DNA of 64,000 bases from a virus. The notes below the pieces were generated by a model. The model had not been told where the DNA came from and searched no databases. It saw only the letters and a program-made list of their open reading frames with translations. Below, in pieces: positions 12,211 through 62,906 of this stretch. The position numbers and the translations under genes were made by a program. Positions within the stretch are counted from its first letter, which is position 1, and the number at the start of each line of letters is the position of its first letter. The stretch lies in IMG/VR virus record IMGVR_UViG_3300015171_000001, positions 32,001 through 96,000 of that record; one strand, written 5' to 3'.

Positions 12211-13371
12211 ATGGCAGTTATTAGACTTTTTCCAACACAAGATACATATATTACAAATAATACCTTATTATTAAATAATAATTTTGGTATAGATGAGGTA
12301 TTGTTATTACAAAAGTCTTCAATATTCAATCCTAGACAATATAGATTGTCTCAAACACAATCTTTTCAAGAAGAAGTTGATTCTCGAATTTTAATACAAT
12401 TTGATTTAAATAAAGTTTCATCTCAAGTTTCGGGAGGAGTTATTCAAAATCCAAAATGTTTTTTAAATCTAAAAACATTAAATGCAGTTGAACTTCCTTT
12501 AAATTATAATATCGATATATTTCCCGTCTCACAGAGTTGGAATATGGGGACGGGGAGAAGTGCTGTAAATGTACAAAACGGAGCAAGTTGGAAGTATAAA
12601 GACAATTATAGCGGGTCCTATTGGATAAGTGGATCACAACCATTTGATAAATCTGGCGGCGGAACTTATTATGTCGGAAGTGTTTTCAATCACTTAAATA
12701 TTAACACATCTTCATTTTTATATAATTTTTGCAATTATTCATCTTCATTACAAATATCTCAATCTTTTTCATATCAAGATTCTGATATTAATGTTGATGT
12801 GACTGATATAGTTAGAAGTTGGGTGTGTGGACAAATTCCAAATAATGGATTTCTCATAACATATCCAACCGCAAGTGATGGTATAGATTATGGATCATTA
12901 CAATTTTATTCTAAAGACACAAACACAATATATTCTCCTTATTTAGAAATAAAGTGGGATGATTCTATTTATAATACAGGATCTTTAAATTCAGCCTCTT
13001 TAAATAAAGTAGTTTATGCCAATAATTTAGGAAAACAATATAAACAAAACTCTTATTCAAGAATAAACGTATTTGCAAGAGAATTATATCCATTAAAAAC
13101 ATTTAATAAATTTTTCTTTGGATATATTGATTTAACATATTTACCAAAAACCAGTTATTATTCTATTTTAGATGCTGAGAGCAGAGAAATTATTATTGAT
13201 TTTGATGATAATTTTACAAAAATAAGTTGTGATTCGTGTGGAAATTATTTTATGTTAAATATGTGTGGACTTCCTCAAGAAAGATTTTTCAAAATATCAT
13301 TTAAAATTATAGAATCTGATGGAAGTATAAATTTTTATGAAGATCCAAATTATTTTAAAGTCGTTAGATAA
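12211..13371 (+). CDS. virion structural protein with DNRLRE/CBM96-like beta domain
   Basis: QDTYIT..NFG, SRILIQFDL, DVTDIVRSW..NNGF, FYSKD..PYLEIKW. Confidence 0.6.
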   Translation: MAVIRLFPTQDTYITNNTLLLNNNFGIDEVLLLQKSSIFNPRQYRLSQTQSFQEEVDSRILIQFDLNKVSSQVSGGVIQNPKCFLNLKTLNAVELPLNYNIDIFPVSQSWNMGTGRSAVNVQNGASWKYKDNYSGSYWISGSQPFDKSGGGTYYVGSVFNHLNINTSSFLYNFCNYSSSLQISQSFSYQDSDINVDVTDIVRSWVCGQIPNNGFLITYPTASDGIDYGSLQFYSKDTNTIYSPYLEIKWDDSIYNTGSLNSASLNKVVYANNLGKQYKQNSYSRINVFARELYPLKTFNKFFFGYIDLTYLPKTSYYSILDAESREIIIDFDDNFTKISCDSCGNYFMLNMCGLPQERFFKISFKIIESDGSINFYEDPNYFKVVR

Positions 13372-13871
13372 TGAAAAATTTTACAGATTATTTACAAGTT
13401 TTTGACAGTATAGAACTTCAAAATATTTTATCGAGTGGTTCTAGTGGATCTTATTTTACACCAGTGACAAATTCATTAGGTAAGATTTTATTAAATTATT
13501 CTCAATCTAGTGTCACGGGAAGTTGTATTTTTATTCCATTAATAAATTATACATACGATGAAACAAAAGCAATGTCTTTATATGGAATAACATCGAGTAT
13601 AACAAATATAACCTCGCAATCTATAAATAGTTCATCTGTAAGTACATCTGTAGATTTTAGATCTCTTTATTTACAAACATTAAATCAAAAAACAAATTTG
13701 GAAACTCAATTAAACACAATTGTCAGTCAAAGTATTGACACGAGTGCTTTGTCAGATGTGTCGGCAGCAAAATCAGTAATTGAGAATCTTAGAATACAAT
13801 TAAGTCAGGGTGTTTCTTCTTCAGATTTTTCTGATATATTTCCTTATTTACCAATCACGAATAATAGATAA
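13371..13871 (+). CDS. hypothetical baseplate-region protein
   Basis: TAATG-coupled to both neighbours. Confidence 0.7.
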   Translation: MKNFTDYLQVFDSIELQNILSSGSSGSYFTPVTNSLGKILLNYSQSSVTGSCIFIPLINYTYDETKAMSLYGITSSITNITSQSINSSSVSTSVDFRSLYLQTLNQKTNLETQLNTIVSQSIDTSALSDVSAAKSVIENLRIQLSQGVSSSDFSDIFPYLPITNNR

Positions 13872-16800
13872 TGAGTTTTATTAATCAAATAGGCAGTGGT
13901 AGTTTATATTCATTTTTAGACGAATCTGATTTAGATTTTATCCAAAATGGACAGTATGTACCAGAATTTGGCACGTATGAAAATGATGTTTTAGAGTGCT
14001 CTATTTTTGATTACAACAATAATTTATTATCTTGGAGTGTTGATTATCCATCTAACAATTTTACAGAAATAAATACAATCTACAATGGAACAGATGGTGT
14101 TAATTATCCTTTAAATTATAAATTATTTAAAGGATATTTTCAAAATAGCGATGGAAATTTGTTAATAAATCCAGTGTTTTTCTTACAACAAAATAATCTT
14201 CCACAAGGGGATTATAAAATAAAGTTTTTTCCGACAAAAAACTTTTTGGGGAGTGATGTATCTAATGAAAAATTAAAAGTTATTTCTATAAATAATAATG
14301 GAACACAAGTAAATTGCGTCCCTAATACATCATATAATGCTACTTCTTCTGAAGAAATAAATTTCAATAAACAATATAACGATTTTATTCAAAATAAAAT
14401 ATATGTTAAATATATTTCTCAAGAAATTATAAATCAAATAAATTCTCCTGAATTAAATCAAAATTATCAATCTGTTAAAAAATCAAACCAAAACATATTT
14501 AATGAGATTTCTCTAAATTACGCTTTTATAAATGATTCTGCCTATTATAATTTCATATTCAATGTTTATTCAATAATTTCAAATTACTATCAGTATTTTA
14601 TTTTATCAAATTATGATTCTGTATTCTTTTATGATGAAATAAAAAATGTATTTTATAATTATATAATTTCTACAATTAATTCCTCATTAAATCAAATAAG
14701 ATCTACATTAACTCCATATTTTCAAAAAAATCACGATCAATATGTAAATTTCTTTTTTAATATTTTTGCACCAACTATTGATTTTGATTCTATTTTTGAA
14801 AATTATTCTTCTAACTTTTTTGGAATATTTAAATATTCTTTAAATTTTGGAAATGATAATATCTACCCATATTTAAATTTCACAACAATTCCGCAGGATA
14901 ATAATCACACAATTATTTCTTTCTTAATAGAACCTTCTATTTTAAATGATATTTCTATTGGAGATTATTGTTGGATAATAAATAATGTAGCACTCCCTAT
15001 TGAGCAAGAATATTTAATTTATGGTTCTTCTCCAGATACATTAAATTATTTACAGGGACCAAATCTCCAATTAAAAACACAAATTTTTGGAAGTTCTACT
15101 AAACAATTAAGTTATTCCCAATTAACAAAAAATCAATCTTCTTTACAAAAGATAAATTCTTATTTTTCACAATCTCTTCAAATTGGAAAAATTAATGTAG
15201 ATTATAGATATTTTGAGAATTTTATTAATTTTTCTAGTGCTCAACAAAGATTAAATAATTATAATTATAAATTAACAACAATTTCTCAATTATCAGAAGA
15301 ACAAAATACTTTATTAATAGAGGCAAATAATAATTTAGACATATATTATCAATCAGAATCTATTGATTTAAATACTAAAACCCAAACTGTACTAAATAGT
15401 TTCGATGGTTATGAGAATTTTTTATATCAAAATCCAAATTGGTATGATATACATAGTTCTCAAGTTGGGGCTGGGGCGAATTCTTATACATCAGCATCAT
15501 TATATGATTCATTTAATAATAATAATTTATTAGTGAGTACTCCTGAATTCATAAGGAGCAATTCAGATAATCAAGATTATTTAACGTTTGTTCAAATGAT
15601 CGGACAATTTTTTGATCAAATTTGGTTACATATTAAAGAAATGCCTTCATTAAAATATCCAGAAAATAATGATGATTTGGGAATTTCAAAAGAACTTATT
15701 TGGAACATACTTTCGTCATTTGGGTTTGAATTAGATTCTGGATTTAATGATACTGATTTATTGTTAAGTATTTTGGGACAAGATGGAGATGGAAATACTA
15801 TAGAGACGACTCCAAGTCAAGATAGAACAAAAACAATTTGGAGAAGAATATTAGCATGTCTCCCATATATGTTAAAAACAAAAGGTTCTCAGGAATGTAT
15901 TAAATACTTACTGTCTTGTTATGGAATCCCAGATGGACTTTTTAGAATTAGAGAATTTTCTGGATTGAGAAATTCATATATTCAAACAAATGATTCCAAT
16001 TTTATATTTGATTCTGGAGATTTTTCATTGAGATTTATTTCTGGAAGTGAATATTTGAGTCTTCCATTTTATTCTGGGTCACAAACAGTAGAAATGAAAT
16101 TTGCATTTGATACTTCAAAAAATTATATTTCTGGGTCACAATATCAATTATTTTCAGGAGATGACACTTGGGCATGTGGGTTAATTAGAGATGTTGGAAC
16201 ATATTGGGGAAGAGGATATTTTACTATTCAATATTCTGGAAGTTATTTATCTGCTATAACTGATAAAGTTCCGGTTTTTAATGGAGATACATTTTCATTT
16301 GTATTTAGAAAATATGATAAAAATATTTATTTTGATCCAACACAAACAACCAGTTCAATTGATTTAATACCATTGCAATATGAAATTATTGTCACAAATA
16401 ATCAAGAGGACTCAATAAATTTTGATCAAAGAGCTTCTGTTATTTTGAGCAGTTCTTATAATACTACATTTAAAAGTGCATCAATATTATATTTTGGAAA
16501 TTATAATTCACCGGCATCTTTTTATGGAAATGTAGAACAAATAAAAGTGTGGAAAAGATTTATTCCAGACGACAGAATTGCTTCTCATGTAATGTTTAAT
16601 GATTCTTATGATAGTGATGATTATACAACAAATGTGTCTGATTTATTAGTAAATTTAAATTTTATCAATCCTACAAATTTATATACATCAAGCAACGTAT
16701 CATATATTCAAAACGAATCCTATAATCAAAATTTTGTAACATATATTACTGCTTCTAATTTTCCAGATTTAGATATAAATTCACAATCATTGTCAGATTG

Positions 16801-17986
16801 TAAATGTGATACAATTGATACTATAATCTCCGCATCATTTCCATGGCAATTTTCGGAAAAGATTGTAACAAATTATGCATCTGTTCCAAGTTTTGGTTCT
16901 CCAATCTATTCAAATTCAAAAATAAGATTGGGTTCACAAAGTTTAGTGGCACCATTGTCTCCTACAGAACGAGCTACAGAAAGATCAATAACATTATATC
17001 AAAATGATACAAATAAAGTGGGAGTATATTTCTCTCCAATAGATTTGGTAAATGATGATATTTTAAAATTCTTCGGAAATTTAGACTTATCAGATATTAT
17101 AGGAACTCCTGCAAATGTTTATGACAGACAATATACTCAATTAAAATCTTTTATATTGTCTTATTTTAAATATGGATCGTTGAGTTTTGATAATATTTTT
17201 TATATAAATGTCGTAAAATCTTATTTTGATAAAAGCATATTCAAACAAATTGAGAAATTAGTTCCCGCAAAATCCAAATTAATCACTGGTCTTTTAATTG
17301 AGCCACATATTTTGGAAAGACCAAAAATAAAATATAGTCCTCCAATTGTTTTATTAGAAAACAATTTTGCATCTAGTTTAAATGTAAAACCTGCCCCAAA
17401 ATCTTCATTATTTCCAAGATTGTCAGATACAGTATCATTTAATTTTGGGGTAAAAGAAAATGCAATGAACATATCTGGACTAATATCACAAACAGGAAAT
17501 TCTTCATTTGAAAATAATTACTTTACATATATTGAGGATGATCCGTTATTATTTAAAACATATACACAAAATGGATTACTAATTTCTTTAGAAAAAACAG
17601 ATGTGTATTACACAACAAAATATTATAAATTGGAATTATTTAATAAAAAATTTAGTAAAGCCTCTGATAATGGAGACGGAACATTTTCGACATCTTCTAA
17701 AAATATTAAAAAATTAAATTTAATACCCATTTCTTCAATAGATTCATTTAATTCTACTCCATTAACATTTTCCGACTCAATTATATACAAAGGATCAAAT
17801 ACAAATCACTCTAGATATAGAAGAAGAATATTTAAAAGTATAAGTAGGCAAGACTCAACTACCACAATAGATCCAACAAGTGGAATCGAAAATGGTTCTT
17901 TGCCAATAGTCTCCACACAAGTAGATAGTGGAACGCTTTCGGTAGGAAATCAAAATTCTGGAGTTATTTTAAATACAAATAGCTAA
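13871..17986 (+). CDS. large baseplate wedge protein (gp7/tail protein I-like core plus LamG-like region)
   Basis: MIGQFFDQIW..I, LPYMLKTKGS..I..LLSCYG.P, LVPA; position in the baseplate block. Confidence 0.6.
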   Translation: MSFINQIGSGSLYSFLDESDLDFIQNGQYVPEFGTYENDVLECSIFDYNNNLLSWSVDYPSNNFTEINTIYNGTDGVNYPLNYKLFKGYFQNSDGNLLINPVFFLQQNNLPQGDYKIKFFPTKNFLGSDVSNEKLKVISINNNGTQVNCVPNTSYNATSSEEINFNKQYNDFIQNKIYVKYISQEIINQINSPELNQNYQSVKKSNQNIFNEISLNYAFINDSAYYNFIFNVYSIISNYYQYFILSNYDSVFFYDEIKNVFYNYIISTINSSLNQIRSTLTPYFQKNHDQYVNFFFNIFAPTIDFDSIFENYSSNFFGIFKYSLNFGNDNIYPYLNFTTIPQDNNHTIISFLIEPSILNDISIGDYCWIINNVALPIEQEYLIYGSSPDTLNYLQGPNLQLKTQIFGSSTKQLSYSQLTKNQSSLQKINSYFSQSLQIGKINVDYRYFENFINFSSAQQRLNNYNYKLTTISQLSEEQNTLLIEANNNLDIYYQSESIDLNTKTQTVLNSFDGYENFLYQNPNWYDIHSSQVGAGANSYTSASLYDSFNNNNLLVSTPEFIRSNSDNQDYLTFVQMIGQFFDQIWLHIKEMPSLKYPENNDDLGISKELIWNILSSFGFELDSGFNDTDLLLSILGQDGDGNTIETTPSQDRTKTIWRRILACLPYMLKTKGSQECIKYLLSCYGIPDGLFRIREFSGLRNSYIQTNDSNFIFDSGDFSLRFISGSEYLSLPFYSGSQTVEMKFAFDTSKNYISGSQYQLFSGDDTWACGLIRDVGTYWGRGYFTIQYSGSYLSAITDKVPVFNGDTFSFVFRKYDKNIYFDPTQTTSSIDLIPLQYEIIVTNNQEDSINFDQRASVILSSSYNTTFKSASILYFGNYNSPASFYGNVEQIKVWKRFIPDDRIASHVMFNDSYDSDDYTTNVSDLLVNLNFINPTNLYTSSNVSYIQNESYNQNFVTYITASNFPDLDINSQSLSDCKCDTIDTIISASFPWQFSEKIVTNYASVPSFGSPIYSNSKIRLGSQSLVAPLSPTERATERSITLYQNDTNKVGVYFSPIDLVNDDILKFFGNLDLSDIIGTPANVYDRQYTQLKSFILSYFKYGSLSFDNIFYINVVKSYFDKSIFKQIEKLVPAKSKLITGLLIEPHILERPKIKYSPPIVLLENNFASSLNVKPAPKSSLFPRLSDTVSFNFGVKENAMNISGLISQTGNSSFENNYFTYIEDDPLLFKTYTQNGLLISLEKTDVYYTTKYYKLELFNKKFSKASDNGDGTFSTSSKNIKKLNLIPISSIDSFNSTPLTFSDSIIYKGSNTNHSRYRRRIFKSISRQDSTTTIDPTSGIENGSLPIVSTQVDSGTLSVGNQNSGVILNTNS

Positions 17987-18031
17987 TTTTTATAAAATTT
18001 AATAGTTATGTATAATCATTAAGAAAAAATT

Positions 18032-18682: not shown

Positions 18683-18683
18683 T

Positions 18684-19769
18684 ATGAGTACAAGCTTTAT
18701 TTTCAAAGATTTTCAATCCACAGATGTAGTTACTGGGAGAATACAAAGTGTGTCCAATCCATTGTGGACATCTGGAGATTTTGAATTAAATAATTTTTAT
18801 ACTTCTAGTATACAAACAATTATTACTGGCGCAAATGCATTAGAACCATTATCTGGTTTATATTATTTAAATGTATATGATTCCGATCCAAATATAGATC
18901 CAACAGCAGAGATTCAATTTTCTATTTCTTATGGGAATCAAGTCGGTTCTGGTAGTTTTTCTTCTGTAAATTCGGCATCAATTTATCCCACACAAACAAT
19001 TTATACACAGTATAAAAACATCATATTATCTCCAAATGAAAGTCAATTTACATTTGCAACCGCCAGTTTTAATAATGGAATTGCATCTCAAGATATTTAT
19101 GTGATAAGTATTTCTGGAAATAGATATAAAGAAAATTTTGATGCTGGTCAGTTCCAATTTGCTTTATATGGAAATAATGGAATTTCATATTTCATCGACG
19201 ATTCCTCTCAATCTACTCAAAATGGAGTATCTACAAATAATGTATTTAATATTGTTTCTGGAACATTAGACGATGGAATTTATCTACAAAATGGAAGTTC
19301 TAGCTTATATGCCGGATTGGTGTATCCAACAATTGGAACTATTATTTTATATCCAAAGGCTTTGGGTGATATTGTTGGATCAAATTTATATCCAAATACA
19401 AGTTCAAATGCAACACAATTAAATCAATATAGATTATTTTCAGCAATTTCGAATGTATTTTCAACAAATTCCGGCTCATTTATCGCAAGATCAACCGAAT
19501 ATATTCCATCTGAACAATATTTTATAAGAGCGGGAAATCAAGAATTTAATTATAGCAATAATCCAACATTTGTGTTGTCAAATCAAACAAATCAATCATT
19601 AAATGGGCAATTATTGTTTACTAGTTTTTATACAGATCCACATACATATGTGACTACTGTTGGATTATATGATGCAAATAATGACTTGGTTGCAGTCGCT
19701 AAATTAAGTCAGCCTATTGAAAAAACTTTTGAGAATGAATTATTAATAAAGGTAAAATTAAACTTTTGA
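18684..19769 (+). CDS. baseplate/tail structural protein
   Basis: C-terminal YVTTVGLYD..LVAVAKLSQP domain shared with 20302..23382. Confidence 0.65.
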   Translation: MSTSFIFKDFQSTDVVTGRIQSVSNPLWTSGDFELNNFYTSSIQTIITGANALEPLSGLYYLNVYDSDPNIDPTAEIQFSISYGNQVGSGSFSSVNSASIYPTQTIYTQYKNIILSPNESQFTFATASFNNGIASQDIYVISISGNRYKENFDAGQFQFALYGNNGISYFIDDSSQSTQNGVSTNNVFNIVSGTLDDGIYLQNGSSSLYAGLVYPTIGTIILYPKALGDIVGSNLYPNTSSNATQLNQYRLFSAISNVFSTNSGSFIARSTEYIPSEQYFIRAGNQEFNYSNNPTFVLSNQTNQSLNGQLLFTSFYTDPHTYVTTVGLYDANNDLVAVAKLSQPIEKTFENELLIKVKLNF

Positions 19770-19775
19770 TGAAAA

Positions 19776-20165
19776 ATGTCTTTATATCCTACTCCGACTC
19801 CCGATCCATTTTTAATTTTAACATCAACTGTGCCATTACAGCCTGATTATATTCCAGTACCTGCATATTTCACTTATCCAACACCAACAGCAAGTCCTAC
19901 ATCACCACCAGATTGTGGTCCATTTACTAATTCTTTATATCCATCATTCTCATACTTAATAAGTTCATCAACAGTAACATTTATTAATACGACAATATCC
20001 AATACGAAAATATCTGGATATAATTGGGATTTTGCAGATGGATTCACTGGCTATGTAAAAAATCCCACGCATAAATATGCAACTCCAGGAACTTATAATG
20101 TAAATCTAACAGAAATGACAATTACTGGATTAACAGCATCCTTTACTCAATCTTTGACTATATAA
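19776..20165 (+). CDS. PKD-domain protein with Pro/Thr-rich linker
   Basis: VTFINT..YNWDFADG..NPTHKYATPGTYNVNLT. Confidence 0.85.
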   Translation: MSLYPTPTPDPFLILTSTVPLQPDYIPVPAYFTYPTPTASPTSPPDCGPFTNSLYPSFSYLISSSTVTFINTTISNTKISGYNWDFADGFTGYVKNPTHKYATPGTYNVNLTEMTITGLTASFTQSLTI

Positions 20166-20170
20166 ATTAT

Positions 20171-20302
20171 ATGATTAAGCCTATAAAGCAATCCAATATA
20201 ACTGTAAATCAATTTAAAGTATTTAAAAATTGGCACATTTATACAATTCCAAATACGTTATATACCGGATCATTATTAGTTAATACAACCAATAGTAATT
20301 AA
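20171..20302 (+). CDS. 43 aa ORF translationally coupled to the next gene (not in ORF track)
   Basis: MIKPIKQSNITVNQFKVFKNW..; stop overlaps the next ATG (TAATG). Confidence 0.5.
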   Translation: MIKPIKQSNITVNQFKVFKNWHIYTIPNTLYTGSLLVNTTNSN

Positions 20303-23300
20303 TGTCTCCGAATATACCACAATTTGTTTATATAGATTCTAGAGATGTAACACAAGATGTAAAAATTCTTGAGGGGATTTCTGGTTCTGGAACATTTTTT
20401 GAAACAATAGATAAGAGATATAATTCATTAAAGAATCCAATTAATTGGGACAACTCTTATAAACGGATTATTTATAGTACATACAAACATATGTTTTATG
20501 AATATATAAATCAACCCGATTATCTATTTGGAGTTGAAAGAGATAATGATGGGCCTGATGGACAATTTGAAGTAAGAAATATAAATGATAGAATTACTGT
20601 TTTAAAACTTCCTCAACCATTATTTGGAGAAACTATTGTCCCAAATACTGTTAAAATAAATGATAGATCAAATTTAAGTACAGAATTAAATATTACAGAT
20701 GATGGATATAGTAATTTAATATTTTCGACACAAAGTATTATTACTACAGGATCTTTTGTTGGAAATAATTTTAACAATATTGAGGAAATTAATGCCGAAA
20801 TAAATCCAGAAATTTATTTAGACCCGCAATATAGAAAATATGATCCAGTGAATGAAAGATATGGATATGCCGTTTCTTCTTGGGATAATTACTTATTAGT
20901 TGGGTCTCCTATGGACACAAATAGTTTTTGTAGTTCTAAAACAGGAAAGGCCGATTTATTAAAATTTGATATAATTGAACAACAATATAGATACATAAAA
21001 ACATTTTATAATATCTATACACAAAATGGATTTGCAACAGAAGAATCTAGTGATGGATCTGAATTATTCATAAATGAATTTGGAGAATTTTTAACAGAAA
21101 ACACATCATCTGTAAATGATAGATTTGGCCAATCAGTATCAATAAATGAATCATTTTCAGCTATTGGATCTTTAGAAAATTGTGGGTGTAATTTTAATGA
21201 TCAATGCGGAGCGGTATTCATTTATGATAAATATAAAGGAGGGGCTGATAATTGGGGATTAATTAATTTATATGTTGGAGAATCAATTGGGGATCAATTT
21301 GGATATTCAGTATCTATTACTGATGATTGGTTGGCGGTGGGTGCTCCATATTTTAGTGGGTCTGGGGCAGTGTATATTTTCAAAAAGGAAATTATTGGAC
21401 AAACAATACCAACAAGTTCTATAACAAGAACATTTCAAAATGAACTTTATAGTATAATAAATTGTCCACCAACACTAATCGACGAAATTACTGATGAAGA
21501 TTTAATAGACGAATTACAATATACAGGTCCATCAGGATCTATTAATGATAACAGTTATCAATTTTATCAAAGAATTCCATCTCCAAATAATTTATCAAAT
21601 GATTGTTTTGGAGGAAGTTTGCAATTAAGTGGAAGTATTTTAGTTGTTGGAAATTGTAAAATTAATCCAACTGGAGATGTCAAACTTTTCCATTTAAATC
21701 AACTAGGAACCGGCTCATATTATGGAACCGGATCATGGGATTTATTTCAATCCATAACAGGATCAATTACACAAACAGGAAATGTTAATTTCTTTAGTTC
21801 ATCAATTGTTCCAGTAACACACTCGCTACAATATTTTGGAAATGCGGTTTGTCTAAATAATAATTTATTATTCATAGGTTCTCCTAGTGACAAATGGTAT
21901 TATGAATATCAAGGAGCAACAACATTATATAAATCTGGCGCAGTTTATATTTATCAATATAATTTATCATCCTCGTATAATTTTGTTGATAAAATATTTG
22001 CAAATGAAATAGATTCAAGAACAGATGAATTTGGTTGTTCAATAGATTCTAAAAATAATTTAGTGGCAATTGGAGCGTTAATAGGAGATCAAATAATTTC
22101 GGCATCATATGTGCCAACATCTTCTGGAACAGGATCTTTTATTATACAACACTACCAAGATTATGCTCAAAGTATAGACGATATTAACCATGTTAATGGA
22201 AAGGCATATTTTTATGAAATACAGACTTTTCTTGGAAATTATTCAGAATTAATTCCACTACAAAATGTTAAAGAAAATAAATTATATGCTGCTCCAAAAC
22301 GACAATATGGGTGGAGCGTAGCTGTTTCGGATAATGGTTATGCTTTTATCGGAGATCCTTTATTTTCCTATCAAAATCCAACAAGTTCTGCTTTTTATGA
22401 TCAAAACATATTAAGAAATAATTATCCATATTTTTATTCTGGGTCTGTATTCGCATATAATCTAAACTCATTAACCGGATCAATAAATTCCAATATTTTA
22501 GGAAATGTTTTTTATAAAAATGGAATTATAACCATAACAGCAACTGGATCGAATATAAATAATACAATAAATCCCGCACAAAGTAGATTTGGATTTGATA
22601 TTGAATATGTTTCTCAGCACACTATAAATGAATACGAAATTATTTGTCCCGTAGAAATTGGAGAATTTAATGTATCTACAAATCCATCATCAGTTATTAG
22701 ATCTAGAATTTTATTTGACGTAAATAACGATGGGGTATTTGATGAAAAAGATTTAGATTTAATTTTAAGATTCATAAATAAATTAATTCAATATAATTCA
22801 CAAACATTAAATAATTCTAGTTTTGAAGATGAAAATGGATTTATATTGGAACAATCAGAAGATTGGTGGAATCCATCGGTATTAATTACGGAAAATATCG
22901 ATGTTATATATGTTAATTCTATTTTACAATCCTTGCCTTCACAAGAAGATTTTATTATTGATTCGGAGATTAATCAATCCACATATGATTATTTGATATT
23001 TTTATTTAATTCTGGATATTTGGATTTAAATGGAGACAATACGGTTAATTCTAAAGATATGGCTATATTGATTAATTATTTTTATTCCAATTTTGATTTT
23101 AAAGGAATTAGAAATAATATAGGATCTTTAAAAAATGCGACTACTATTATTACCAATTTAAATCAATATACTGGTAAAAATAATGGGATTTATATAGATG
23201 GGAATTTTTTAAATTATGCAGAATCGGCATCTATAGACAAAACCGGAAGTTATTTGGCTCCATATGTTACGACAGTTGGCTTATATTCAAACTACGAATT

Positions 23301-23382
23301 GGTTGCAGTGGCTAAATTGGCCAAGCCTTATAAAATAACTTCGGAATTTCCAATAAATTTTCGTATTACTTTTGATTTTTAA
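20302..23382 (+). CDS. tail/baseplate protein with FG-GAP beta-propeller and dockerin/EF-hand-like loops
   Basis: Repeats FGYSVSI..LAVGAP..GAVYIF; DVNNDGVFDEKD and DLNGDNTVNSKD; C-terminal TTVGLY..AVAKL. Confidence 0.75.
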   Translation: MSPNIPQFVYIDSRDVTQDVKILEGISGSGTFFETIDKRYNSLKNPINWDNSYKRIIYSTYKHMFYEYINQPDYLFGVERDNDGPDGQFEVRNINDRITVLKLPQPLFGETIVPNTVKINDRSNLSTELNITDDGYSNLIFSTQSIITTGSFVGNNFNNIEEINAEINPEIYLDPQYRKYDPVNERYGYAVSSWDNYLLVGSPMDTNSFCSSKTGKADLLKFDIIEQQYRYIKTFYNIYTQNGFATEESSDGSELFINEFGEFLTENTSSVNDRFGQSVSINESFSAIGSLENCGCNFNDQCGAVFIYDKYKGGADNWGLINLYVGESIGDQFGYSVSITDDWLAVGAPYFSGSGAVYIFKKEIIGQTIPTSSITRTFQNELYSIINCPPTLIDEITDEDLIDELQYTGPSGSINDNSYQFYQRIPSPNNLSNDCFGGSLQLSGSILVVGNCKINPTGDVKLFHLNQLGTGSYYGTGSWDLFQSITGSITQTGNVNFFSSSIVPVTHSLQYFGNAVCLNNNLLFIGSPSDKWYYEYQGATTLYKSGAVYIYQYNLSSSYNFVDKIFANEIDSRTDEFGCSIDSKNNLVAIGALIGDQIISASYVPTSSGTGSFIIQHYQDYAQSIDDINHVNGKAYFYEIQTFLGNYSELIPLQNVKENKLYAAPKRQYGWSVAVSDNGYAFIGDPLFSYQNPTSSAFYDQNILRNNYPYFYSGSVFAYNLNSLTGSINSNILGNVFYKNGIITITATGSNINNTINPAQSRFGFDIEYVSQHTINEYEIICPVEIGEFNVSTNPSSVIRSRILFDVNNDGVFDEKDLDLILRFINKLIQYNSQTLNNSSFEDENGFILEQSEDWWNPSVLITENIDVIYVNSILQSLPSQEDFIIDSEINQSTYDYLIFLFNSGYLDLNGDNTVNSKDMAILINYFYSNFDFKGIRNNIGSLKNATTIITNLNQYTGKNNGIYIDGNFLNYAESASIDKTGSYLAPYVTTVGLYSNYELVAVAKLAKPYKITSEFPINFRITFDF

Positions 23383-23406
23383 TTTTATATTTATATTTAT
23401 TATATT

Positions 23407-23631
23407 ATGGCAGACAATACCTTTAACAGACCTTCATTAACAACTAATCTCGTTGCAAGATATAATAATCTTGGGGGGAAATATGATCCAATGGCCGTAC
23501 ACTTTTTCCAAAGTGTTTTTGCACAAGGATTTACATTAAATGAGACGACAACTGAATTTACATTTCAGGCATCAACATATGCTCCAACAGGGAACGAAAT
23601 TACACCATATTATGTAGGTGTAAATGCATAA
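23407..23631 (+). CDS. hypothetical protein
   Basis: 74 aa, preceded by the late-type motif, coupled to ruvC. Confidence 0.6.
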   Translation: MADNTFNRPSLTTNLVARYNNLGGKYDPMAVHFFQSVFAQGFTLNETTTEFTFQASTYAPTGNEITPYYVGVNA

Positions 23632-24146: not shown

Positions 24147-24192
24147 CTTAATATAAGTTTATTTTATTTGGAACCTCGTCTATTATTTATAG

Positions 24193-25143: not shown

Positions 25144-25144
25144 A

Positions 25145-28351: not shown

Positions 28352-28368
28352 TATACTTATAGAGTATA

Positions 28369-54306: not shown

Positions 54307-55608
54307 ATGCCACAAGATCCAACACCATATCCAGCAGACTTAAGGGTAAGATGGCCAGGAAGTGGCTCAAATCCTTCAGGATCGACTCCATTTGGATTTT
54401 ATGATGCTGATACTCAATTCCAATATTTAGCACCAAGGGCGGCATCCTGGGCAGCAAAAATGTTAGGTTATCCAATCATTGATGTTGAAATGTTAGATGT
54501 TAATTTCTATGCTTGTTTAGAAGGAGCTATTAATGAATATGGAAATCAAGTAAATCAATTTAATATTATTAATAATATTTCATTGTTACAAGGACTTCCC
54601 ACTACCACAACAGTTTCTGGTCAAAATATTCAAGGGATGGGATTGTCTCAACAAATACAATTAGCACAAGGTTATGGAACTGAGGCTGGTGTTGGTGGAT
54701 ATGTTAGTTGGAAAACTGGAAGTATTAGATTATATCATGGAATACAACAATATGATTTACAATCTTTATGGGGGGATGTAATAGAAAGTGGAAGTAGAAT
54801 AGAAATTAAAAGAATTTTCCATTATGCTCCACCAGCTTCTGCTAGAATTTATGATCCATTTTCTATGACCGGAATGAGTTATAGTAATATTATGAATGAG
54901 ATGGGATTTGCTGGATTCTCGCCAGCCACTCAATTCTTAATGACTCCAATATTCGAGGATTTATTAAGAATACAAGCTATTGAATTTAATGATACTGTTA
55001 GAAAAAGTGCATATTCTTTTGAATTAGTAAATAATAAAGTTAGAATATTTCCCATTCCTACATTTGGAGATGGTGCTGCTTATTGTCATCCGTCAAGTGG
55101 AAGTTGTGATGGTGGTTATGGCGAGTTTGGAGATGGATTTGATGATTTTGCTGATTATAATGATTGGTATTATGGAAAAAGACTTCATTTTGAATATATT
55201 GTTGTAAATGATAGAAATCTCGCTGATGCAAATTTATTTCCATCACAACAATCTAGTGGAAGTGTAATATCCGATTATAGTAATGTCCCATATCAAATAA
55301 TTCCTTTCTCAAATATAAATTCTCCCGGTCAACAATGGATTTACAAATATTTCTTAGCAAACTGCAAAGAAGTTTTGGGAGCCATAAGACAAAAATATCA
55401 AACTATTCCTGTTCCTGGCGCAGAAGTTACTTTAGATGGTGCAGAATTAAGACAAGAAGCATCTGCGGAAAAAGCAGAATTAATTACACAATTAAGAGAA
55501 AATTTAGAGGCCACTACTAGAAAAAGTCAATTATCCACACAATCTGAAGAAGCTGATCAATTACAAAATGTTCTAAAAAAGATTCCAACATTAATATATG
55601 TAGGTTAG
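54307..55608 (+). CDS. neck/head-tail adaptor protein (gp13-like)
   Basis: LGYPIIDVE; WIYKYFLANCKEVLG.IR.KY..PG..VTLDG.EL..EA; ends IYVG. Confidence 0.85.
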   Translation: MPQDPTPYPADLRVRWPGSGSNPSGSTPFGFYDADTQFQYLAPRAASWAAKMLGYPIIDVEMLDVNFYACLEGAINEYGNQVNQFNIINNISLLQGLPTTTTVSGQNIQGMGLSQQIQLAQGYGTEAGVGGYVSWKTGSIRLYHGIQQYDLQSLWGDVIESGSRIEIKRIFHYAPPASARIYDPFSMTGMSYSNIMNEMGFAGFSPATQFLMTPIFEDLLRIQAIEFNDTVRKSAYSFELVNNKVRIFPIPTFGDGAAYCHPSSGSCDGGYGEFGDGFDDFADYNDWYYGKRLHFEYIVVNDRNLADANLFPSQQSSGSVISDYSNVPYQIIPFSNINSPGQQWIYKYFLANCKEVLGAIRQKYQTIPVPGAEVTLDGAELRQEASAEKAELITQLRENLEATTRKSQLSTQSEEADQLQNVLKKIPTLIYVG

Positions 55609-55641
55609 GTAGGAACTTTTTAATTCTTATATTTATATAAT

Positions 55642-56121: not shown

Positions 56122-56124
56122 TTT

Positions 56125-57444: not shown

Positions 57445-59019
57445 ATGATTCCTAATAGTAAATTAAAGATTTCACAATTACCATTTGCCAGTGGAAGCGA
57501 AATTACTTTTAGTGATTCTATACATTTAATAAAATATCCTCAAAAAGAAGGTAAGCAAGCCTATCTATCAGATGTTCAATCTTTATTTGGAAGTAATTTC
57601 ACAGCATCTTATTGTATTACCGCCGCTTATGCATTAAATGGTGGAAGTGGAGGAACTAATGCTTCTTATGTTATAACTGCTTCTGGAGCTAACAGCAATC
57701 TTACAGCATCGTATGCATTGACGGCAAGTCATTTTAGTGGATTGTCCCCATCAGGAAATTATTCAACAACTATTGGAGATGGTGTTCACAATACATATAC
57801 TATAATTCATGGATTGAGAACAGTTGATATATTATATTCTGTATTTGATACCGGCACTTTGCAATTTGTGATTCCAAATGTTTCTATTATTGACACAAAC
57901 ACAATCTCTGTTCATTTTTTTAATATTCCTACTACAAATCAATTTAATATTACTGTTACTGCCGGAAACATAGTATTAAATAATAGTGGAAGTGGAAATT
58001 CTGTTTCAGCTTCTTATGCAACAACAGCATCTTATGCATTAAATGGTGGGGGAGGAACTAATGCTTCTTATGTTATAACTGCCTCTGGAGCTAATAGCAA
58101 TCTTACAGCATCCTACGCTTTAACAGCTAGTTTCTTTTCTGGAATGCTTTTAACAGGATCTTTTACAAAATTAATTGGAGATGGAATAAATAATACATTT
58201 ACAGTAGTTCATAATTTAAATACTACTAATTTATTATTTTCTATGTATGATGTAGGAACACTACAAATTGTTTACCCCAATATAAGTATTTTAAATGTTA
58301 ATAGTGTAATAGTAAAGTTTTTTTCAGTTCCGACCACAAACGAATTTAGTTTAACAATTTCAGCAGGAAACACAACTTTCGGTTCTGGAGCAGTAACAGC
58401 TTCTTATGCAACAACAGCATCTTATGCATTAAATGGTGGGGGAGGAACAACAAATACTGGATCGTTTGTTGTGACTGCATCTGGAACTTCTGGTAATTTA
58501 ACAGCATCATATGCATTAAATTCAGTAACCGCATCATATAGTTTAAATGGAAATATTAATACTGGTTCATTTGTTGTTACTGCGTCTGGTACTACAGGAA
58601 ACCTTACATCAAGTTATGCATTGACTGCTAGTTATTTTTCTGGAAATTTTTCGGGTTCATACACAACATTAATTGGTGATGGGGTTCACAATTCATATAC
58701 AATTACACATAATTTAGGAACAAAAAATTTATTATTTGCAATGTATGACACAGGAACTAATCAATTAATTACTCCAGATGTAACATTTATAGATAACAAT
58801 AATATATTAGTTTCTTTTGGTACTGTACCATCTACTAATGAATATAGTTTAACAATTTCTATAGGAAATGAAATTTTTATTACTAGCACATCTACATCTA
58901 GTTATCTTGCGCCATTTAATGGTTCTGGTTCTTTGACTGGAAGTGCTGGGTCAATTGCAACATTTCTATTTGTGAATATAAACGGAACTAATTATAAAAT
59001 GGCACTATATAATTTATAA
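57445..59019 (+). CDS. fibre/decoration protein with three repeated beta modules and TASYA repeats
   Basis: KISQLP N-terminus; three copies of IGDG..N.(Y/F)T..H.L.T; many TASYAL. Confidence 0.7.
   Translation: MIPNSKLKISQLPFASGSEITFSDSIHLIKYPQKEGKQAYLSDVQSLFGSNFTASYCITAAYALNGGSGGTNASYVITASGANSNLTASYALTASHFSGLSPSGNYSTTIGDGVHNTYTIIHGLRTVDILYSVFDTGTLQFVIPNVSIIDTNTISVHFFNIPTTNQFNITVTAGNIVLNNSGSGNSVSASYATTASYALNGGGGTNASYVITASGANSNLTASYALTASFFSGMLLTGSFTKLIGDGINNTFTVVHNLNTTNLLFSMYDVGTLQIVYPNISILNVNSVIVKFFSVPTTNEFSLTISAGNTTFGSGAVTASYATTASYALNGGGGTTNTGSFVVTASGTSGNLTASYALNSVTASYSLNGNINTGSFVVTASGTTGNLTSSYALTASYFSGNFSGSYTTLIGDGVHNSYTITHNLGTKNLLFAMYDTGTNQLITPDVTFIDNNNILVSFGTVPSTNEYSLTISIGNEIFITSTSTSSYLAPFNGSGSLTGSAGSIATFLFVNINGTNYKMALYNL
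58007..58448 (+). repeat. exact 52 bp direct repeat (58007-58058 and 58397-58448)
   Basis: CAGCTTCTTATGCAACAACAGCATCTTATGCATTAAATGGTGGGGGAGGAAC twice, 390 bp apart. Confidence 0.9.
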
Positions 59020-59055
59020 GGTTTTTACAATATTTTAATTCTATATATTAAAAAT

Positions 59056-59334: not shown

Positions 59335-59338
59335 AAAT

Positions 59339-59828: not shown

Positions 59829-59930
59829 TTTATAAAAATTGATAAAATATTTGTAATATTAAAAATTAATACATTTTGAAAATTAAAAAATATATTTATA
59901 AATATTAACTTATAAAACAACAACAAAAAT

Positions 59931-62906
59931 ATGGCAACATCTCAAGACTTATCCTACAAACCAATTTCAAGACTAGTTTCTCCAATAGTGGCAACTAGAG
60001 AAATTGACCAATCTTTCCTTGCACAAGGGGTAGCAAATATTGGAGGTGCAATTGTTGGTCCTTTTGCTCAAGGACCTGGATTTACTCCAGTAACTGTAAC
60101 ATCTATTGCAGATTTTGAGGCACTTTTTGGTGTTCCAGATGGCACATATTATACACCATATACAGTTGAGCAATATTTGGCTCAAAGCAATATTGTTACT
60201 ATTGTGAGAACTGGTCAATTGGGTGGATATATTCAACAAAATCCAATATTGCTTCTTGCTCAAAGTGGTTCAACATCAAGACAGGCTGGATTGGGAATAT
60301 TTACTTCGTCTATTGGATATTGCACAATTACTACTGCTGGTGTGACTGGAAGTGTTACTGGCTCGGTTACTAGCACTTTCTTAAATGGTCCTCTTTCTGG
60401 AAGTTTATTCTCAATTCCAATTACTGCTTCTTTTGTTAGTGGAAGTGTTGGATATATAAGCGGAAGTTCAAAATTCTCATCTGGATCTATTCTTTATACA
60501 TTGCCAGCATCTACTGGAAATTTTGCAGGTAGCGTGTTTACTGCTTTTGTAAGTTCATCAACAGTTGGAAGTTCTATTAAATATAATATTCAAGGAAATA
60601 TTTCTGGAAGTTATGGTGCATTTATTCCAAATACATTCGTGGCTAATGGATCTACACCATTATTACTTGCAACATTAGCAAATTCTGCTTATGACTCCGC
60701 ACAAAATTTAAATGGATTTACGGGAAGTATATTAACTGCCGTAAATACTGGATCAATTGGTTCAGATTATTTCTTGTCACTAGCTGATTTAAATCCTATT
60801 ACATTAACTACATCAAGTTATGGAACTTATAGATTCTCATTAGATTCTACAAGTCCATCATGGTTAACTAATGTATTTAGCACAGATCCAACAGCAGGTG
60901 CAGTTGCGGTTGCTGCTGGTCAAAAAATAGATGCTGCTTATATTTATAATTATTTTGAAAATACAATTGATCAAGTTTTAGGATCGATGTTAACTAATGG
61001 AAATTATCAAGTAAAAATAGCAAATGCCGATGGTGTTTATTTTGATCCAGTTTCTTCACAATATTTACCAAATCAATCACTTAAATTTAGCGATGGTGTT
61101 CCCGGTGGTGGTGGTGGAGTAAATAATGTTGCTTGGAGTGCATATGACTTACGAGAAGCTGAAACCCCATGGATTAATTCTCAAAAAATCTCATCTTGGA
61201 GTGGCAGTGTTAGTCAATCATCTACAAGATATAATTTATTCAAAGTTCACACTCTTTCTGATGGAACTTCAACAAATACAAATTATAAAATACAAATTCA
61301 AAATGTTAAATTGGCTGGTCAAGTTCCAGGAAGTGATTATGGATTATTTGATCTTGTTGTGCGATCTTTTACAGATACAGACAGAAGACCATATGTACTT
61401 GAAAGATATTCTAATTTATCATTAGATCCATCTTCAGTAAATTATATCGCAAGAAGAATTGGAGATTCTTATAGTTCAATTGACTATAATGGAAAAATTT
61501 TACAATTTGGTACATATAATAATCAAAGTAAATATGTGAGAGTTGAAATGACTGTTTCTCCAATTCCAGTAACAGCAGTTCCTTATGGATTCGATTCTTA
61601 TGCAAGTCCTATTGGTGGTCAATATGCACATTCAATTCCATTGATGACATATACAAGTGCAAGTATTTATTCTAAACAACCAGGAAAATATTCAAGTGGT
61701 ATTGTTTTTCAACCTGCACCTGCTGGTGCTGATGCAGAATTATCCGCATTATATCCTGATGGTACTTCTCAAGGGGCTGAATTAGATAACTTACAATATT
61801 TTGCACCAATTCCAGAAAATTCAGTAACAGGAAATAATTATTTTGATTTAAATGATTTCTGTGGAATTCCTGCTGTATATAGTCCGTCTAATGAAAGTAC
61901 TAATATATTGATGAGAAATTTCACATTAGGATTTCAACAAGGATTTGACGGGGGTTCTCCTTCTATTCCTAAATTATTAGGAAATGATATTCTTCCTTCA
62001 AATACACAAGGATTAGACTGTACCTCAATTGTTTCCAGTGGAAGCGTTGCTTATAAAAATTGTTTAGATGCATTGTCAAATGCAGATGAATTTGATATTA
62101 ACTTATTAGCTACACCAGGAATTCTTTATAACTTACATCCGCATGTTGTAAACTTGGGGGTTAACATTTGTGAAAATCGTGGAGATGCATTTTATATCTT
62201 TGATATTTATGCAAATCAAACTGCTGGTGGAAACTCAATTGATAATGTTGTTTCTACTGCGGCTGAATTTGATACTAATTATGCAGCTACTTATTATCCT
62301 TGGATTAAAATAGTTGATACAAACACAAACCAAATAATAACAGTTCCTCCTTCAGTTGTGATGCCTTCTATTTACGCACAAAATGATAAAGTTGCTAATG
62401 AATGGAATGCACCTGCTGGTTTAAATCGTGGTGGAATTACTCAGGCTGTTGGTGTTGTTGATAGATTGACACAAACAGATCGTGATACATTATATGATGG
62501 CAGAGTTAATCCAATTGCTTCTTTTCCAGGAACTGGAATTGTTGCGTGGGGTCAAAAAACTCTTCAAGTATTGCCAAGTGCTCTTGATAGAGTAAATGTA
62601 AGAAGATTGTTGATTGCTCTTAAAAAGTTCATTGCAAGTTCTTCAAAGTATTTGTTATTTGAACAAAATGTCGCAACTACAAGAAATAAATTCTTAAGTA
62701 TTGTTAATCCTTATCTTGAAAGTGTTGTGCAACGTAATGGTTTATACGCATTCAGAGTTCAAATGGATGCCAATAATAATACGGCTGCATTAATAGATCA
62801 AAATATATTATATGGTAACATATTTTTACAGCCAACCAAATCCATAGAAATAATTTTACTTGATTTCCGTGTACTTCCTAGTGGAGCCGTGTTCCCAAAT
62901 GACTAA
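59931..62906 (+). CDS. gp18: tail sheath protein (gp18-like)
   Basis: SP.V..REID.S, W.APAGLNRG, VNPI..FPG.G..WGQKTL, DRVNVRRLL. Confidence 0.95.
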   Translation: MATSQDLSYKPISRLVSPIVATREIDQSFLAQGVANIGGAIVGPFAQGPGFTPVTVTSIADFEALFGVPDGTYYTPYTVEQYLAQSNIVTIVRTGQLGGYIQQNPILLLAQSGSTSRQAGLGIFTSSIGYCTITTAGVTGSVTGSVTSTFLNGPLSGSLFSIPITASFVSGSVGYISGSSKFSSGSILYTLPASTGNFAGSVFTAFVSSSTVGSSIKYNIQGNISGSYGAFIPNTFVANGSTPLLLATLANSAYDSAQNLNGFTGSILTAVNTGSIGSDYFLSLADLNPITLTTSSYGTYRFSLDSTSPSWLTNVFSTDPTAGAVAVAAGQKIDAAYIYNYFENTIDQVLGSMLTNGNYQVKIANADGVYFDPVSSQYLPNQSLKFSDGVPGGGGGVNNVAWSAYDLREAETPWINSQKISSWSGSVSQSSTRYNLFKVHTLSDGTSTNTNYKIQIQNVKLAGQVPGSDYGLFDLVVRSFTDTDRRPYVLERYSNLSLDPSSVNYIARRIGDSYSSIDYNGKILQFGTYNNQSKYVRVEMTVSPIPVTAVPYGFDSYASPIGGQYAHSIPLMTYTSASIYSKQPGKYSSGIVFQPAPAGADAELSALYPDGTSQGAELDNLQYFAPIPENSVTGNNYFDLNDFCGIPAVYSPSNESTNILMRNFTLGFQQGFDGGSPSIPKLLGNDILPSNTQGLDCTSIVSSGSVAYKNCLDALSNADEFDINLLATPGILYNLHPHVVNLGVNICENRGDAFYIFDIYANQTAGGNSIDNVVSTAAEFDTNYAATYYPWIKIVDTNTNQIITVPPSVVMPSIYAQNDKVANEWNAPAGLNRGGITQAVGVVDRLTQTDRDTLYDGRVNPIASFPGTGIVAWGQKTLQVLPSALDRVNVRRLLIALKKFIASSSKYLLFEQNVATTRNKFLSIVNPYLESVVQRNGLYAFRVQMDANNNTAALIDQNILYGNIFLQPTKSIEIILLDFRVLPSGAVFPND

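What the first reader, a model, noticed from the sequence alone, without database searches (positions are those of the whole stretch)
12211..62906. [S/T]-[G/A]-S tripeptide concentrated in virion proteins: candidate glycosylation sequon
Seen (counted by eye): about 14 SGS/TGS/SAS/TAS in the sheath, 11 of them in roughly residues 110-290. There are five in the capsid protein, all in the variable region at about residues 160-240, six in the neck protein, and many in baseplate and fibre genes (ISGSE, YSGSQ, ISGSQ, YSGSY, TASY). I found essentially none in primase, the 1068 aa Mre11-Rad50 fusion or the terminase exteins. The codons vary, so the pattern is at protein level. Known: some phages glycosylate virion proteins with their own glycosyltransferases. 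A KpsS-like transferase is encoded in this window. Inference: a genome-wide modification sequon placed on outward-facing loops, producing a glycan-coated particle.
Basis: partly seen in the sequence, partly recalled or inferred. Interest (0 to 1): 0.78.

Follow-up and report, generated by a model that had tools for sequence, protein, structure and literature searches.

The report
Ser-Gly-Ser tag on phage surface proteins
The outward-facing head, neck, sheath, baseplate and fibre proteins of this 157-kb aquatic T4-like phage carry the ordered tripeptide Ser/Thr-Gly/Ala-Ser three to five times too often.

Summary
In the window there are 104 sites against 31.6 expected. Genome-wide, SGS and TGS are the two most over-represented of all tripeptides, while permutations and classic turn formers sit near 1x. 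Codons vary. The real unit is hydrophobic-[S/T]-[G/A]-S-hydrophobic. Outside the window it forms tandem (T/S)GS(F/Y/H/L) arrays in fibres, with 111 sites in one 1397-aa protein.

The trait is lineage-specific. It is present in hundreds of metagenomic relatives, in Flavobacterium phage immuto and in Microcystis phage Mel-JY01. It is absent from T4 (0.54x) and from two huge phages. In sheath homologues the density is kept (10.7 against 3.1 expected) while positions turn over.

The glycosylation reading stays untested. The genome has a tailoring island between fibre genes (GT2, GT8, GT32-like, three radical SAM genes, a carbamoyltransferase and an amidotransferase). Its enzymes and the KpsS-like gene are not shared with other motif-bearing phages. 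The GT cassette that those phages share is missing from this record, which is estimated 67% complete. Non-virion proteins show no avoidance of the motif.

This scan has noted the same motif in more than 100 other aquatic phage genomes. I found no published description.

The parts
12211..13371 (+). Outer baseplate protein (386 aa), 5 sites
   Evidence: shuffle z 5.5. Orthologue of immuto gp111, next to the baseplate wedge gene.
13371..13871 (+). Small virion protein (166 aa), 3 sites
13871..17986 (+). Large baseplate/fibre protein (1371 aa), 9 sites, including ISGSE, YSGSQ, ISGSQ and YSGSY at residues 724-789
   Evidence: Orthologue of immuto gp109.
18684..20165 (+). Two virion ORFs (361 and 129 aa), 4 and 2 sites
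   Evidence: The first is an orthologue of immuto gp106.
20302..23382 (+). FG-GAP/dockerin-bearing baseplate protein (1026 aa), 15 sites
   Evidence: z 9.9. Pfam PF14312 and PF00404.
28369..31200 (+). Tail fibre protein (943 aa), 10 sites
   Evidence: phrog_863 and phrog_6202.
48020..49645 (+). Major capsid protein. Its 5 sites are all in the insertion domain, residues 160-238
   Evidence: phrog_138. Sites 182, 212 and 236 are kept in 88, 106 and 108 of 120 homologues. They lie at strand ends or hairpins of a beta domain with pLDDT 65-83.
54307..55608 (+). gp13-like neck protein (433 aa), 6 sites
   Evidence: z 6.2. phrog_211. Orthologues carry PF26809 Phage_T4_gp13.
57445..59019 (+). Fibre-like virion protein (524 aa), 24 sites, in internally duplicated 'TASYALTAS' and 'TGSFVVTAS' blocks
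   Evidence: Fibre and virion PHROGs.
59931..62906 (+). Tail sheath (991 aa), 14 sites, 11 of them in residues 112-273 of the outer domains
   Evidence: phrog_23. Residues 763-988 match T4 gp18 residues 430-651. Model pLDDT 81.7. 115 homologues carry 10.7 sites against 3.1 expected.
2875..3771 (-). It is a real gene but is not linked to the motif by any test made here
   Evidence: PF05159, E 2.9e-7. It does not co-occur with the motif.

Best explanation
The motif is a short ordered tag, hydrophobic-[S/T]-[G/A]-S-hydrophobic. It is displayed on well-folded, beta-rich, outward-facing domains of otherwise unrelated virion proteins and is read in trans by a factor specific to this phage lineage. 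The most likely reader is a soluble phage-encoded glycosyltransferase that O-glycosylates the invariant third-position Ser in the cytoplasm. Other enzymes would then extend and tailor the glycan, so the released particle, and above all its fibres with their tandem (T/S)GS-aromatic arrays, carries a sugar coat.

In this genome the candidate machinery is the 14-kb island between fibre genes (G000 11757-26054): GT2, GT8, a GT32-like gene, three N-twitch radical SAM genes, an AsnB-like amidotransferase, a carbamoyltransferase and a 2OG oxygenase. The KpsS-like gene is not the candidate.

Shown: the excess, its order-specificity, its restriction to outer virion proteins, its lineage distribution, and the presence and position of the island.

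Inferred: that the tag is read by an enzyme, that the modification is a sugar, which residue is the acceptor, and which enzyme starts the chain.
For: 1. The same sharply defined tripeptide is enriched in non-homologous folds of one genome. SGS and TGS rank first and second of all tripeptides, and the a-G-b matrix peaks only at S-G-S (4.4x) and T-G-S (3.7x).
2. Position 3 takes Ser and not Thr, although Thr is the better beta-former. The middle residue must be small and uncharged.
3. Homologous folds elsewhere do without it. T4 virion proteins have 14 sites against 25.8 expected. The LR756508 MCP insertion domain, 51% identical, has AAGD and LPTN where this clade has SGS.
4. In 115 sheath homologues the density is held at 3.43x, against 1.34x for permuted controls. 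The motif is spread over 116 alignment columns, and only 5 of these are kept in at least half of the sequences. This is how a sequon behaves.
5. The flanks at -1 and +3 are hydrophobic (52% and 57% against a background of 35%). In a strand the two hydroxyls would therefore point away from the core.
6. A glycan-tailoring island sits between fibre genes.
7. A gp181-gp180-GT2 cassette is shared by the motif-bearing phages immuto and Mel-JY01. Its gp180-like GT is also found, next to a GT2 match, in relatives G001-G003 (gp181 was not searched there). The gp180-like GT is absent from the motif-negative T4, LR756508 and LR756511.
Against: - There is no chemical evidence.
- This record lacks the cassette shared by the other motif-bearing phages. 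None of its own island enzymes, nor the KpsS-like gene, is shared with immuto or Mel-JY01. No conserved initiating enzyme is therefore identified here.
- The record is only about 67% complete by CheckV, so the absence is not firm.
- The GT association is confounded by phylogeny. Among GenBank phages the gp180-like GT is found only in immuto and Mel-JY01.
- Non-virion proteins show no avoidance of the motif (24 against 28.2 expected).
- Sites lie in ordered beta structure with hydrophobic flanks, and they form tandem arrays with an aromatic fourth residue. That also fits a purely structural repeat.
- The island could instead serve DNA or host-surface modification.
Confidence: 0.42

Rival explanations
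1. The motif is a purely structural beta motif. Phi-[ST]-[GA]-S-Phi would be a packing unit: a small residue between two hydrophobics on the inner face and hydroxyls on the outer face. It would belong to a lineage-specific family of beta-hairpin or beta-helix modules that build the fibres and were grafted onto capsid, sheath, neck and baseplate proteins. No modification would be involved, and the glycosyltransferases would serve another purpose (DNA, host envelope).
For: - Fibres contain tandem (T/S)GS(F/Y/H/L) arrays of period 4. The fourth residue is hydrophobic or aromatic in 86% of cases.
- Sites lie in confidently modelled strands and at hairpin ends.
- MCP sites are positionally conserved next to conserved core residues F233 and V235.
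- Non-virion proteins show no avoidance.
- GT repertoires differ between motif-bearing phages.
- Look-alikes of the fibre in the protein atlas include clusters with bactofilin-type beta-helix hits. This is a lead only.
Against: - Unrelated folds share the motif in one lineage, while the same folds in T4 and LR756508 lack it.
- Ser is strongly preferred over Thr at position 3, and ordinary turn formers (NG, DG) are not enriched.
- Positions turn over while density is kept constant in sheath homologues.
- The secondary-structure context varies between mid-strand, strand end, loop and helix start.
Confidence: 0.3
2. The tag is read in trans, but not by a glycosyltransferase. The reader could be another modifying enzyme, for example one of the three N-twitch radical SAM proteins next to the fibre genes (epimerisation or cross-linking), or an acyl- or phospho-transferase. 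It could also be a non-enzymatic binder such as a decoration protein or an assembly chaperone.
For: - Three paralogous N_Twi_rSAM genes (NF033640, E 1e-50 to 1e-58) lie directly downstream of the fibre genes.
- The arguments for a trans-acting reader listed under the best explanation apply equally here.
- The window also encodes an Hsp20.
Against: - The radical SAM genes are absent from immuto and Mel-JY01, which carry the motif.
- No kinase or acyltransferase tracks the motif.
- No known radical SAM peptide chemistry targets S-G-S. This statement rests on my own knowledge and was not tested.
Confidence: 0.13
3. The excess is an artefact of composition, of low-complexity or repeat expansion, or of a DNA-level bias in a 28% GC genome.
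For: - Virion proteins are rich in S, T and G.
- Three fibre ORFs are highly repetitive.
Against: - Expectations were computed per protein from its own composition, and permutations of the same residues are not enriched.
- The signal persists after the repeat fibres are removed.
- Both Ser codon families are used, with 97 distinct 9-mers among 175 sites.
- The excess holds in relatives with GC from 31% to 53%.
Confidence: 0.02

Closest known systems
Mycobacteriophage virion glycosylation by phage-encoded glycosyltransferases (Freeman et al. 2023, as summarised in PMC12619734; the paper itself is not held)
   Same: The phage encodes its own glycosyltransferases. The proposed targets are capsid and tail proteins of the particle.
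   Different: In the mycobacteriophages the glycans sit at the C-termini of the capsid and tail-tube subunits. Here the sites are internal and lie in folded beta domains. They follow a defined tripeptide and occur in about a dozen proteins. The tail tube has none. No chemistry exists for this lineage.
GtfA/GtfB O-GlcNAc priming of serine-rich repeat adhesins (PMC6973325)
   Same: That system is a cytosolic O-glycosylation of Ser in short Ser-small-Ser-type repeats, primed by a two-protein GT complex and extended by a variable set of further GTs. The period-4 (T/S)GS-X arrays in the fibres recall SRR domains. The sequence of the SRR repeat is recalled from my own knowledge.
   Different: The DUF1975/PF09318 domain is absent from this genome and from four relatives. 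The fourth residue here is aromatic or hydrophobic and the segments are predicted to be ordered, not disordered. There is no accessory Sec export.
Autotransporter heptosyltransferases (Aah/TibC acting on AIDA-I/TibA); recalled from my own knowledge
   Same: A cytoplasmic enzyme modifies Ser/Thr displayed on repeated, folded beta-helix rungs of a surface protein.
   Different: The enzyme family was not searched for here. The substrate repeat in that system is a 19-residue unit, not a tripeptide. It is a bacterial adhesin system, not a virion system.
Bacteroidota general O-glycosylation sequon D-[S/T]-[A/I/L/V/M/T]; recalled from my own knowledge
   Same: It is a three-residue O-glycosylation sequon in the phylum that probably includes the host. 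The nearest cultured relative infects Flavobacterium.
   Different: The sequon does not match. Position -1 here is mostly L, I, V or N and not D, and the key residue here is the third one. That pathway acts in the periplasm, which phage virion proteins do not pass through.

Membership tests
Phage virion glycosylation (mycobacteriophage type) | Phage-encoded glycosyltransferases present | tested here: met
   GT2, GT8, a GT32-like gene and a Capsule_synth gene. The island lies between fibre genes.
Phage virion glycosylation (mycobacteriophage type) | Glycans on C-terminal tails of capsid and tail-tube subunits | tested here: not met
   MCP sites lie at residues 160-238 of 541. The tail tube (G000 113640-114128) has 0 sites.
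Phage virion glycosylation (mycobacteriophage type) | Glycan demonstrated on virion proteins | not testable with these tools
   Needs mass spectrometry or glycan staining.
GtfA/GtfB serine-rich-repeat O-GlcNAc system | GtfA/GtfB pair with the DUF1975 (PF09318) domain | tested here: not met
   No PF09318 match in G000, immuto, Mel-JY01, G001 or G002.
GtfA/GtfB serine-rich-repeat O-GlcNAc system | Long tandem Ser-small-Ser-X repeats as acceptor | tested here: inconclusive
   Period-4 arrays are present in the fibres, with 64 site spacings of 4. X is aromatic, and most sites in other proteins are isolated.
KpsS/KpsC Capsule_synth (PF05159) | Match to the family profile above the curated cut-off | tested here: met
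   30.7 bits against a cut-off of 20. Residues 141-253 match profile positions 144-263 of 310, so the match is partial.
   Present in G000 and in the motif-negative LR756508. Absent from the motif-bearing immuto and Mel-JY01.
Bacteroidota general O-glycosylation | Sequon D-[ST]-[AILVMT] | tested here: not met
   The commonest residues at -1 are L, I, N, V, G and T. The enriched middle residue is G or A, followed by Ser.
immuto-type GT cassette (gp181-gp180-GT2) | gp180-like GT4 encoded in the genome | tested here: not met
   No match in G000 by tblastn, phmmer or the genome search. The record is about 67% complete, so absence from the phage itself is not proven.
T4-like tail sheath and gp23-type MCP (carrier proteins) | Profile and structure match | tested here: met
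   phrog_23 and phrog_138. PDB hits to gp18.

The most novel reading that the evidence does not exclude
A sequon-directed, virion-wide O-glycosylation system in a very large clade of aquatic T4-like phages. The third-position Ser of [S/T]-[G/A]-S, displayed on folded outer domains of capsid, neck, sheath, baseplate and fibres, would be glycosylated by soluble phage enzymes. Fibres built of tandem (T/S)GS-aromatic units would act as densely glycosylated brushes. Different sub-lineages, this one included, would have exchanged the transferase set while keeping the tag.
Probability: 0.4. Interest if true: 0.85.

Novelty: new variant of a known kind. Interest (0 to 1): 0.66.

Why it matters
If the tag is a glycosylation sequon, a large share of abundant aquatic myoviruses carry a self-made glycan coat at predictable residues. 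The MCP family has at least 8000 clusters below E 1e-30 and at least 594 IMG/VR contigs. Such a coat would bear on host recognition, on particle stickiness and decay in water, and on immune or grazer recognition. It would also be the first defined protein-glycosylation sequon for a bacteriophage.

Two cultured phages carry the trait: Flavobacterium phage immuto and Microcystis phage Mel-JY01. The idea is therefore directly testable.

If the tag proves to be structural, it defines an undescribed four-residue fibre repeat and a lineage-wide design rule for surface domains.

Tried and rejected
- KpsS-like gene as the responsible enzyme: it does not co-occur with the motif.
- N-twitch radical SAM, GT8 and GT32-like genes as conserved partners: within the five records searched (G000, immuto, Mel-JY01, LR756508, T4) they are confined to this genome, apart from GT32-like in the motif-negative LR756508.
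- Presence of the GT2 family as a discriminator: it is also present in the motif-negative LR756511.
- Orthologues of the immuto/Mel-JY01 GT cassette in G000: none found.
- GtfA/GtfB DUF1975 domain: none found.
- Avoidance of the motif in non-virion proteins: not seen, 0.85x and not significant.
- A Pfam repeat family for the fibres: none.
- A PDB sequence match for the repeat fibre: none.
- MCP whole-chain model: poor (pLDDT 42), so only the insertion domain was used.
- Closest metagenomic contigs (L095, L096): their records are not held for whole-record search.
- Literature: searches for a published description of the motif or of phage fibre modification by radical SAM enzymes found nothing relevant.


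Full report
**What the window is.** The window is G000:C1:32001-96000 of a single 157,280-bp contig with 27.8% GC. CheckV rates the record 67% complete, and it has no terminal repeats. It is a distant T4-like myovirus.

Genes identified in the window:

| Window coordinates | Gene | Evidence |
|---|---|---|
| 24193-25143 | primase | |
| 25145-28351 | Mre11-Rad50 fusion | |
| 33106-36159 | large terminase with inteins | |
| 36588-40808 | portal with inteins | |
| 42605-44284 | prohead protease with intein | |
| 48020-49645 | gp23-type MCP | |
| 54307-55608 | gp13-like neck protein | |
| 59931-62906 | 991-aa sheath | |
| 10286-23382 and 28369-31200 | baseplate and fibre genes | |

The nearest cultured relatives are Flavobacterium phage immuto (MCP 52% identical) and Microcystis phage Mel-JY01 (51%). 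The MCP family is very large in metagenomes. There are 8000 clusters below E 1e-30, the best at 66-76% identity, and at least 594 IMG/VR contigs.

- Shuffling each protein gives 31.6 expected sites in the window against 104 observed. Z-scores are 5.5 for the sheath, 6.2 for the neck, 9.9 for ORF 20302 and 10.9 for ORF 57445.
- The effect is not compositional. With the three most repetitive fibres removed, SGS and TGS are the two most over-represented of all tripeptides in the genome. SAS and TAS are about 2.1-2.2x. The permutations GSS, SSG, GST and STG and the turn formers NGS, DGS and SGN lie between 0.7x and 1.4x.
- In virion ORFs chosen beforehand by map position, [ST]-G-S is 4.1x and [ST]-A-S is 3.1x. 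Charged middle residues are depleted. In the matrix of all a-G-b tripeptides only S-G-S (4.4x) and T-G-S (3.7x) stand out, while S-G-T is 1.7x and T-G-T 1.2x.
- Codons come from both serine families, so the pattern is at protein level.

**Anatomy.** The unit is longer than three residues. Positions -1 and +3 are hydrophobic or aromatic in 52% and 57% of sites, against a background of 35%.

Outside the window the unit becomes a tandem repeat. G000 97589-101782 (1397 aa) has 111 sites and G000 27049-28467, minus strand (472 aa), has 40. These sites form runs such as TGSFTGSFTGSL between 'TASYALNAVGLN' blocks, and 64 successive spacings are exactly 4. No Pfam family or PDB sequence covers these fibres.

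In the MCP all five sites lie in the insertion domain, the only confidently modelled part (pLDDT 65-83). There they close beta strands or hairpins.

In the sheath model (pLDDT 81.7):

- Residues 763-988 correspond to the inner C-terminal part of T4 gp18.
- Eleven of the 14 sites fall in residues 112-273, within the added outer domains.
- Six sites are at strand ends next to turns, four are in mid-strand, and four are in loops or at a helix start.

Inner or hidden parts are poor in the motif. The portal has 0 sites, the tail tube 0, the inner wedge protein 1, and the scaffold and core ORFs 0.

**Distribution among relatives.**

| Genome or set | Motif observed/expected |
|---|---|
| immuto | SGS 61 vs 22.4; TGS 52 vs 22.3; GSF 35 vs 10.2, in its virion proteins |
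| 55 IMG/VR loci of the clade, GC 31-53% | 2.09x (permuted controls 1.17x) |
| Mel-JY01 | 2.0x |
| RM378 | 2.0x, but with raised controls |
| T4, 28 virion proteins | 14 vs 25.8 |
| LR756508 (huge phage) | 1.03x |
| LR756511 (huge phage) | 0.89x |

LR756508 lacks the excess although its MCP is as close to the query as immuto's. In a seven-way MCP alignment the insertion domain is clearly homologous, yet where this clade has RAFT[VI]-SGS-G and F[VI]V-SGS, LR756508 has AAGD and LPTN. The fold therefore does not need the motif.

Within the clade three MCP sites are kept in 73-90% of 120 homologues.

In 115 sheath homologues (overall 51-70% identical; 38-65% in the outer region searched):

- Each protein keeps 6-18 sites, mean 10.7 against 3.1 expected.
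- The sites occupy 116 different alignment columns.
- Only five of those columns are shared by at least half of the sequences.

Density is conserved while positions drift. This is typical of a tag that is read, not of residues that hold a fold.

**Enzymes.** The KpsS-like gene is real (window 2875-3771, minus strand; PF05159). It does not track the motif.

It holds three N-terminal-twitch radical SAM genes, a GT2, a GT8, a GT32-like gene, an AsnB-like amidotransferase, a carbamoyltransferase and a 2OG-Fe(II) oxygenase. None of these has an orthologue in immuto or Mel-JY01.

Conversely, immuto gp181-gp180 (GT4-like) and gp178 (GT2) form a cassette that is syntenic in Mel-JY01.

- The gp180-like GT is present in the two complete IMG/VR relatives and in one partial relative, with a GT2 match close beside it; gp181 itself was not searched for there.
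- It is absent from T4, LR756508, LR756511 and RM378.
- It is also absent from this record.
- Among 50,697 GenBank phages it occurs only in immuto and Mel-JY01.

The association is therefore real but cannot be separated from phylogeny. This genome is either an exception or is incomplete at the relevant place.

The orthologue of immuto gp185, which lies just upstream of the cassette in immuto, is window 4504-5475. In this genome the KpsS-like gene lies beside it and no cassette follows. This may hint at a replacement.

**Weighing.** Four points argue for a trans-acting reader:

1. The motif recurs in unrelated folds of one lineage.
2. Its specificity is sharp and asymmetric.
3. Homologous folds in other phages lack it.
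4. Its positions turn over while its density is held.

Four points keep a purely structural reading alive:

1. The context is ordered and beta-rich.
2. The fibres carry tandem arrays with an aromatic fourth residue.
3. Non-virion proteins do not avoid the motif.
4. No conserved initiating enzyme is found in this genome.

My estimates:

| Reading | Probability |
|---|---|
| O-glycosylation sequon | about 0.42 |
| Structural motif only | 0.30 |
| Another modification or a binder | 0.13 |
| Artefact | 0.02 |

The remainder is unassigned.

**Comparison with the known.** Phage virion glycosylation is established for mycobacteriophages, but at C-terminal tails (PMC12619734, citing Freeman et al. 2023). 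The nearest mechanistic analogue is cytosolic priming of Ser-rich repeats by the GtfA/GtfB complex (PMC6973325). Its defining DUF1975 domain is absent here. The Bacteroidota sequon does not fit.

I found no published description of this motif. This scan has noted it in more than 100 other aquatic phage genomes, and earlier follow-ups reached similar verdicts. Those notes are unchecked leads and are not independent evidence.

Noticed in passing
G000:C1:97589-101782 (+) and G000:C1:27049-28467 (-), outside the window (L003:2589-6782; L002:5049-6467): Fibres are built of tandem four-residue units (T/S)-G-S-(F/Y/H/L), interleaved with 'TASYALNAVGLN' and 'TSSYA' blocks. They carry 111 and 40 motif sites. 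No Pfam, PHROG-named or PDB relative was found. Look-alikes in the protein atlas are all viral hypothetical proteins, some with bactofilin-type hits.
   Followed up: partly
G000:C1:11757-26054 (L001:7757-19029; L002:1096-4054): A tailoring island lies between fibre genes. It holds three paralogous N-terminal-twitch radical SAM genes (NF033640), a GT2, a GT8, a GT32-like gene, an AsnB-like amidotransferase, a NodU-type carbamoyltransferase, a 2OG-Fe(II) oxygenase and five ORFs without a family. One radical SAM match runs through a TAA stop (G000 12944-14050).
   Followed up: partly
window 33106-36159, 36588-40808, 42605-44284: The large terminase (1017 aa), the portal (1406 aa, with HNH-type hits) and the prohead protease (559 aa) are all enlarged by intein-like insertions. 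The few motif hits in TerL and the protease lie inside these insertions.
   Followed up: no
NC_055915.1 49172-53029 (L004/L005) and PP395634.1 83441-86972 (L094): A cassette of two GT4-like genes plus a GT2 is syntenic between Flavobacterium phage immuto and Microcystis phage Mel-JY01 (37-54% identity). The first gene is split in two in Mel-JY01. The best PDB relative is the chlorovirus glycosyltransferase B736L.
   Followed up: partly
window 3925-4434 and 5739-6368: The phage encodes an Hsp20/alpha-crystallin and a peptide deformylase next to the KpsS-like gene.
   Followed up: no
window 20302-23382: A 1026-aa baseplate protein combines FG-GAP repeats with a dockerin-type Ca-binding segment, and has 15 motif sites.
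   Followed up: no
G000:C1:106619-107899 and 114697-117078 (L093): A nucleotidyltransferase fused to a zeta-toxin-type kinase. Separately, a SPRY-domain protein is followed by a weak GT4-like ORF that scores below the Pfam cut-off.
   Followed up: no
window 57445-59019: An internal duplication: residues about 70-100 and about 205-235 are near-identical ('GTNASYVITASGANSNLTASYALTAS'), and 338-350 repeats at 373-385.
   Followed up: no
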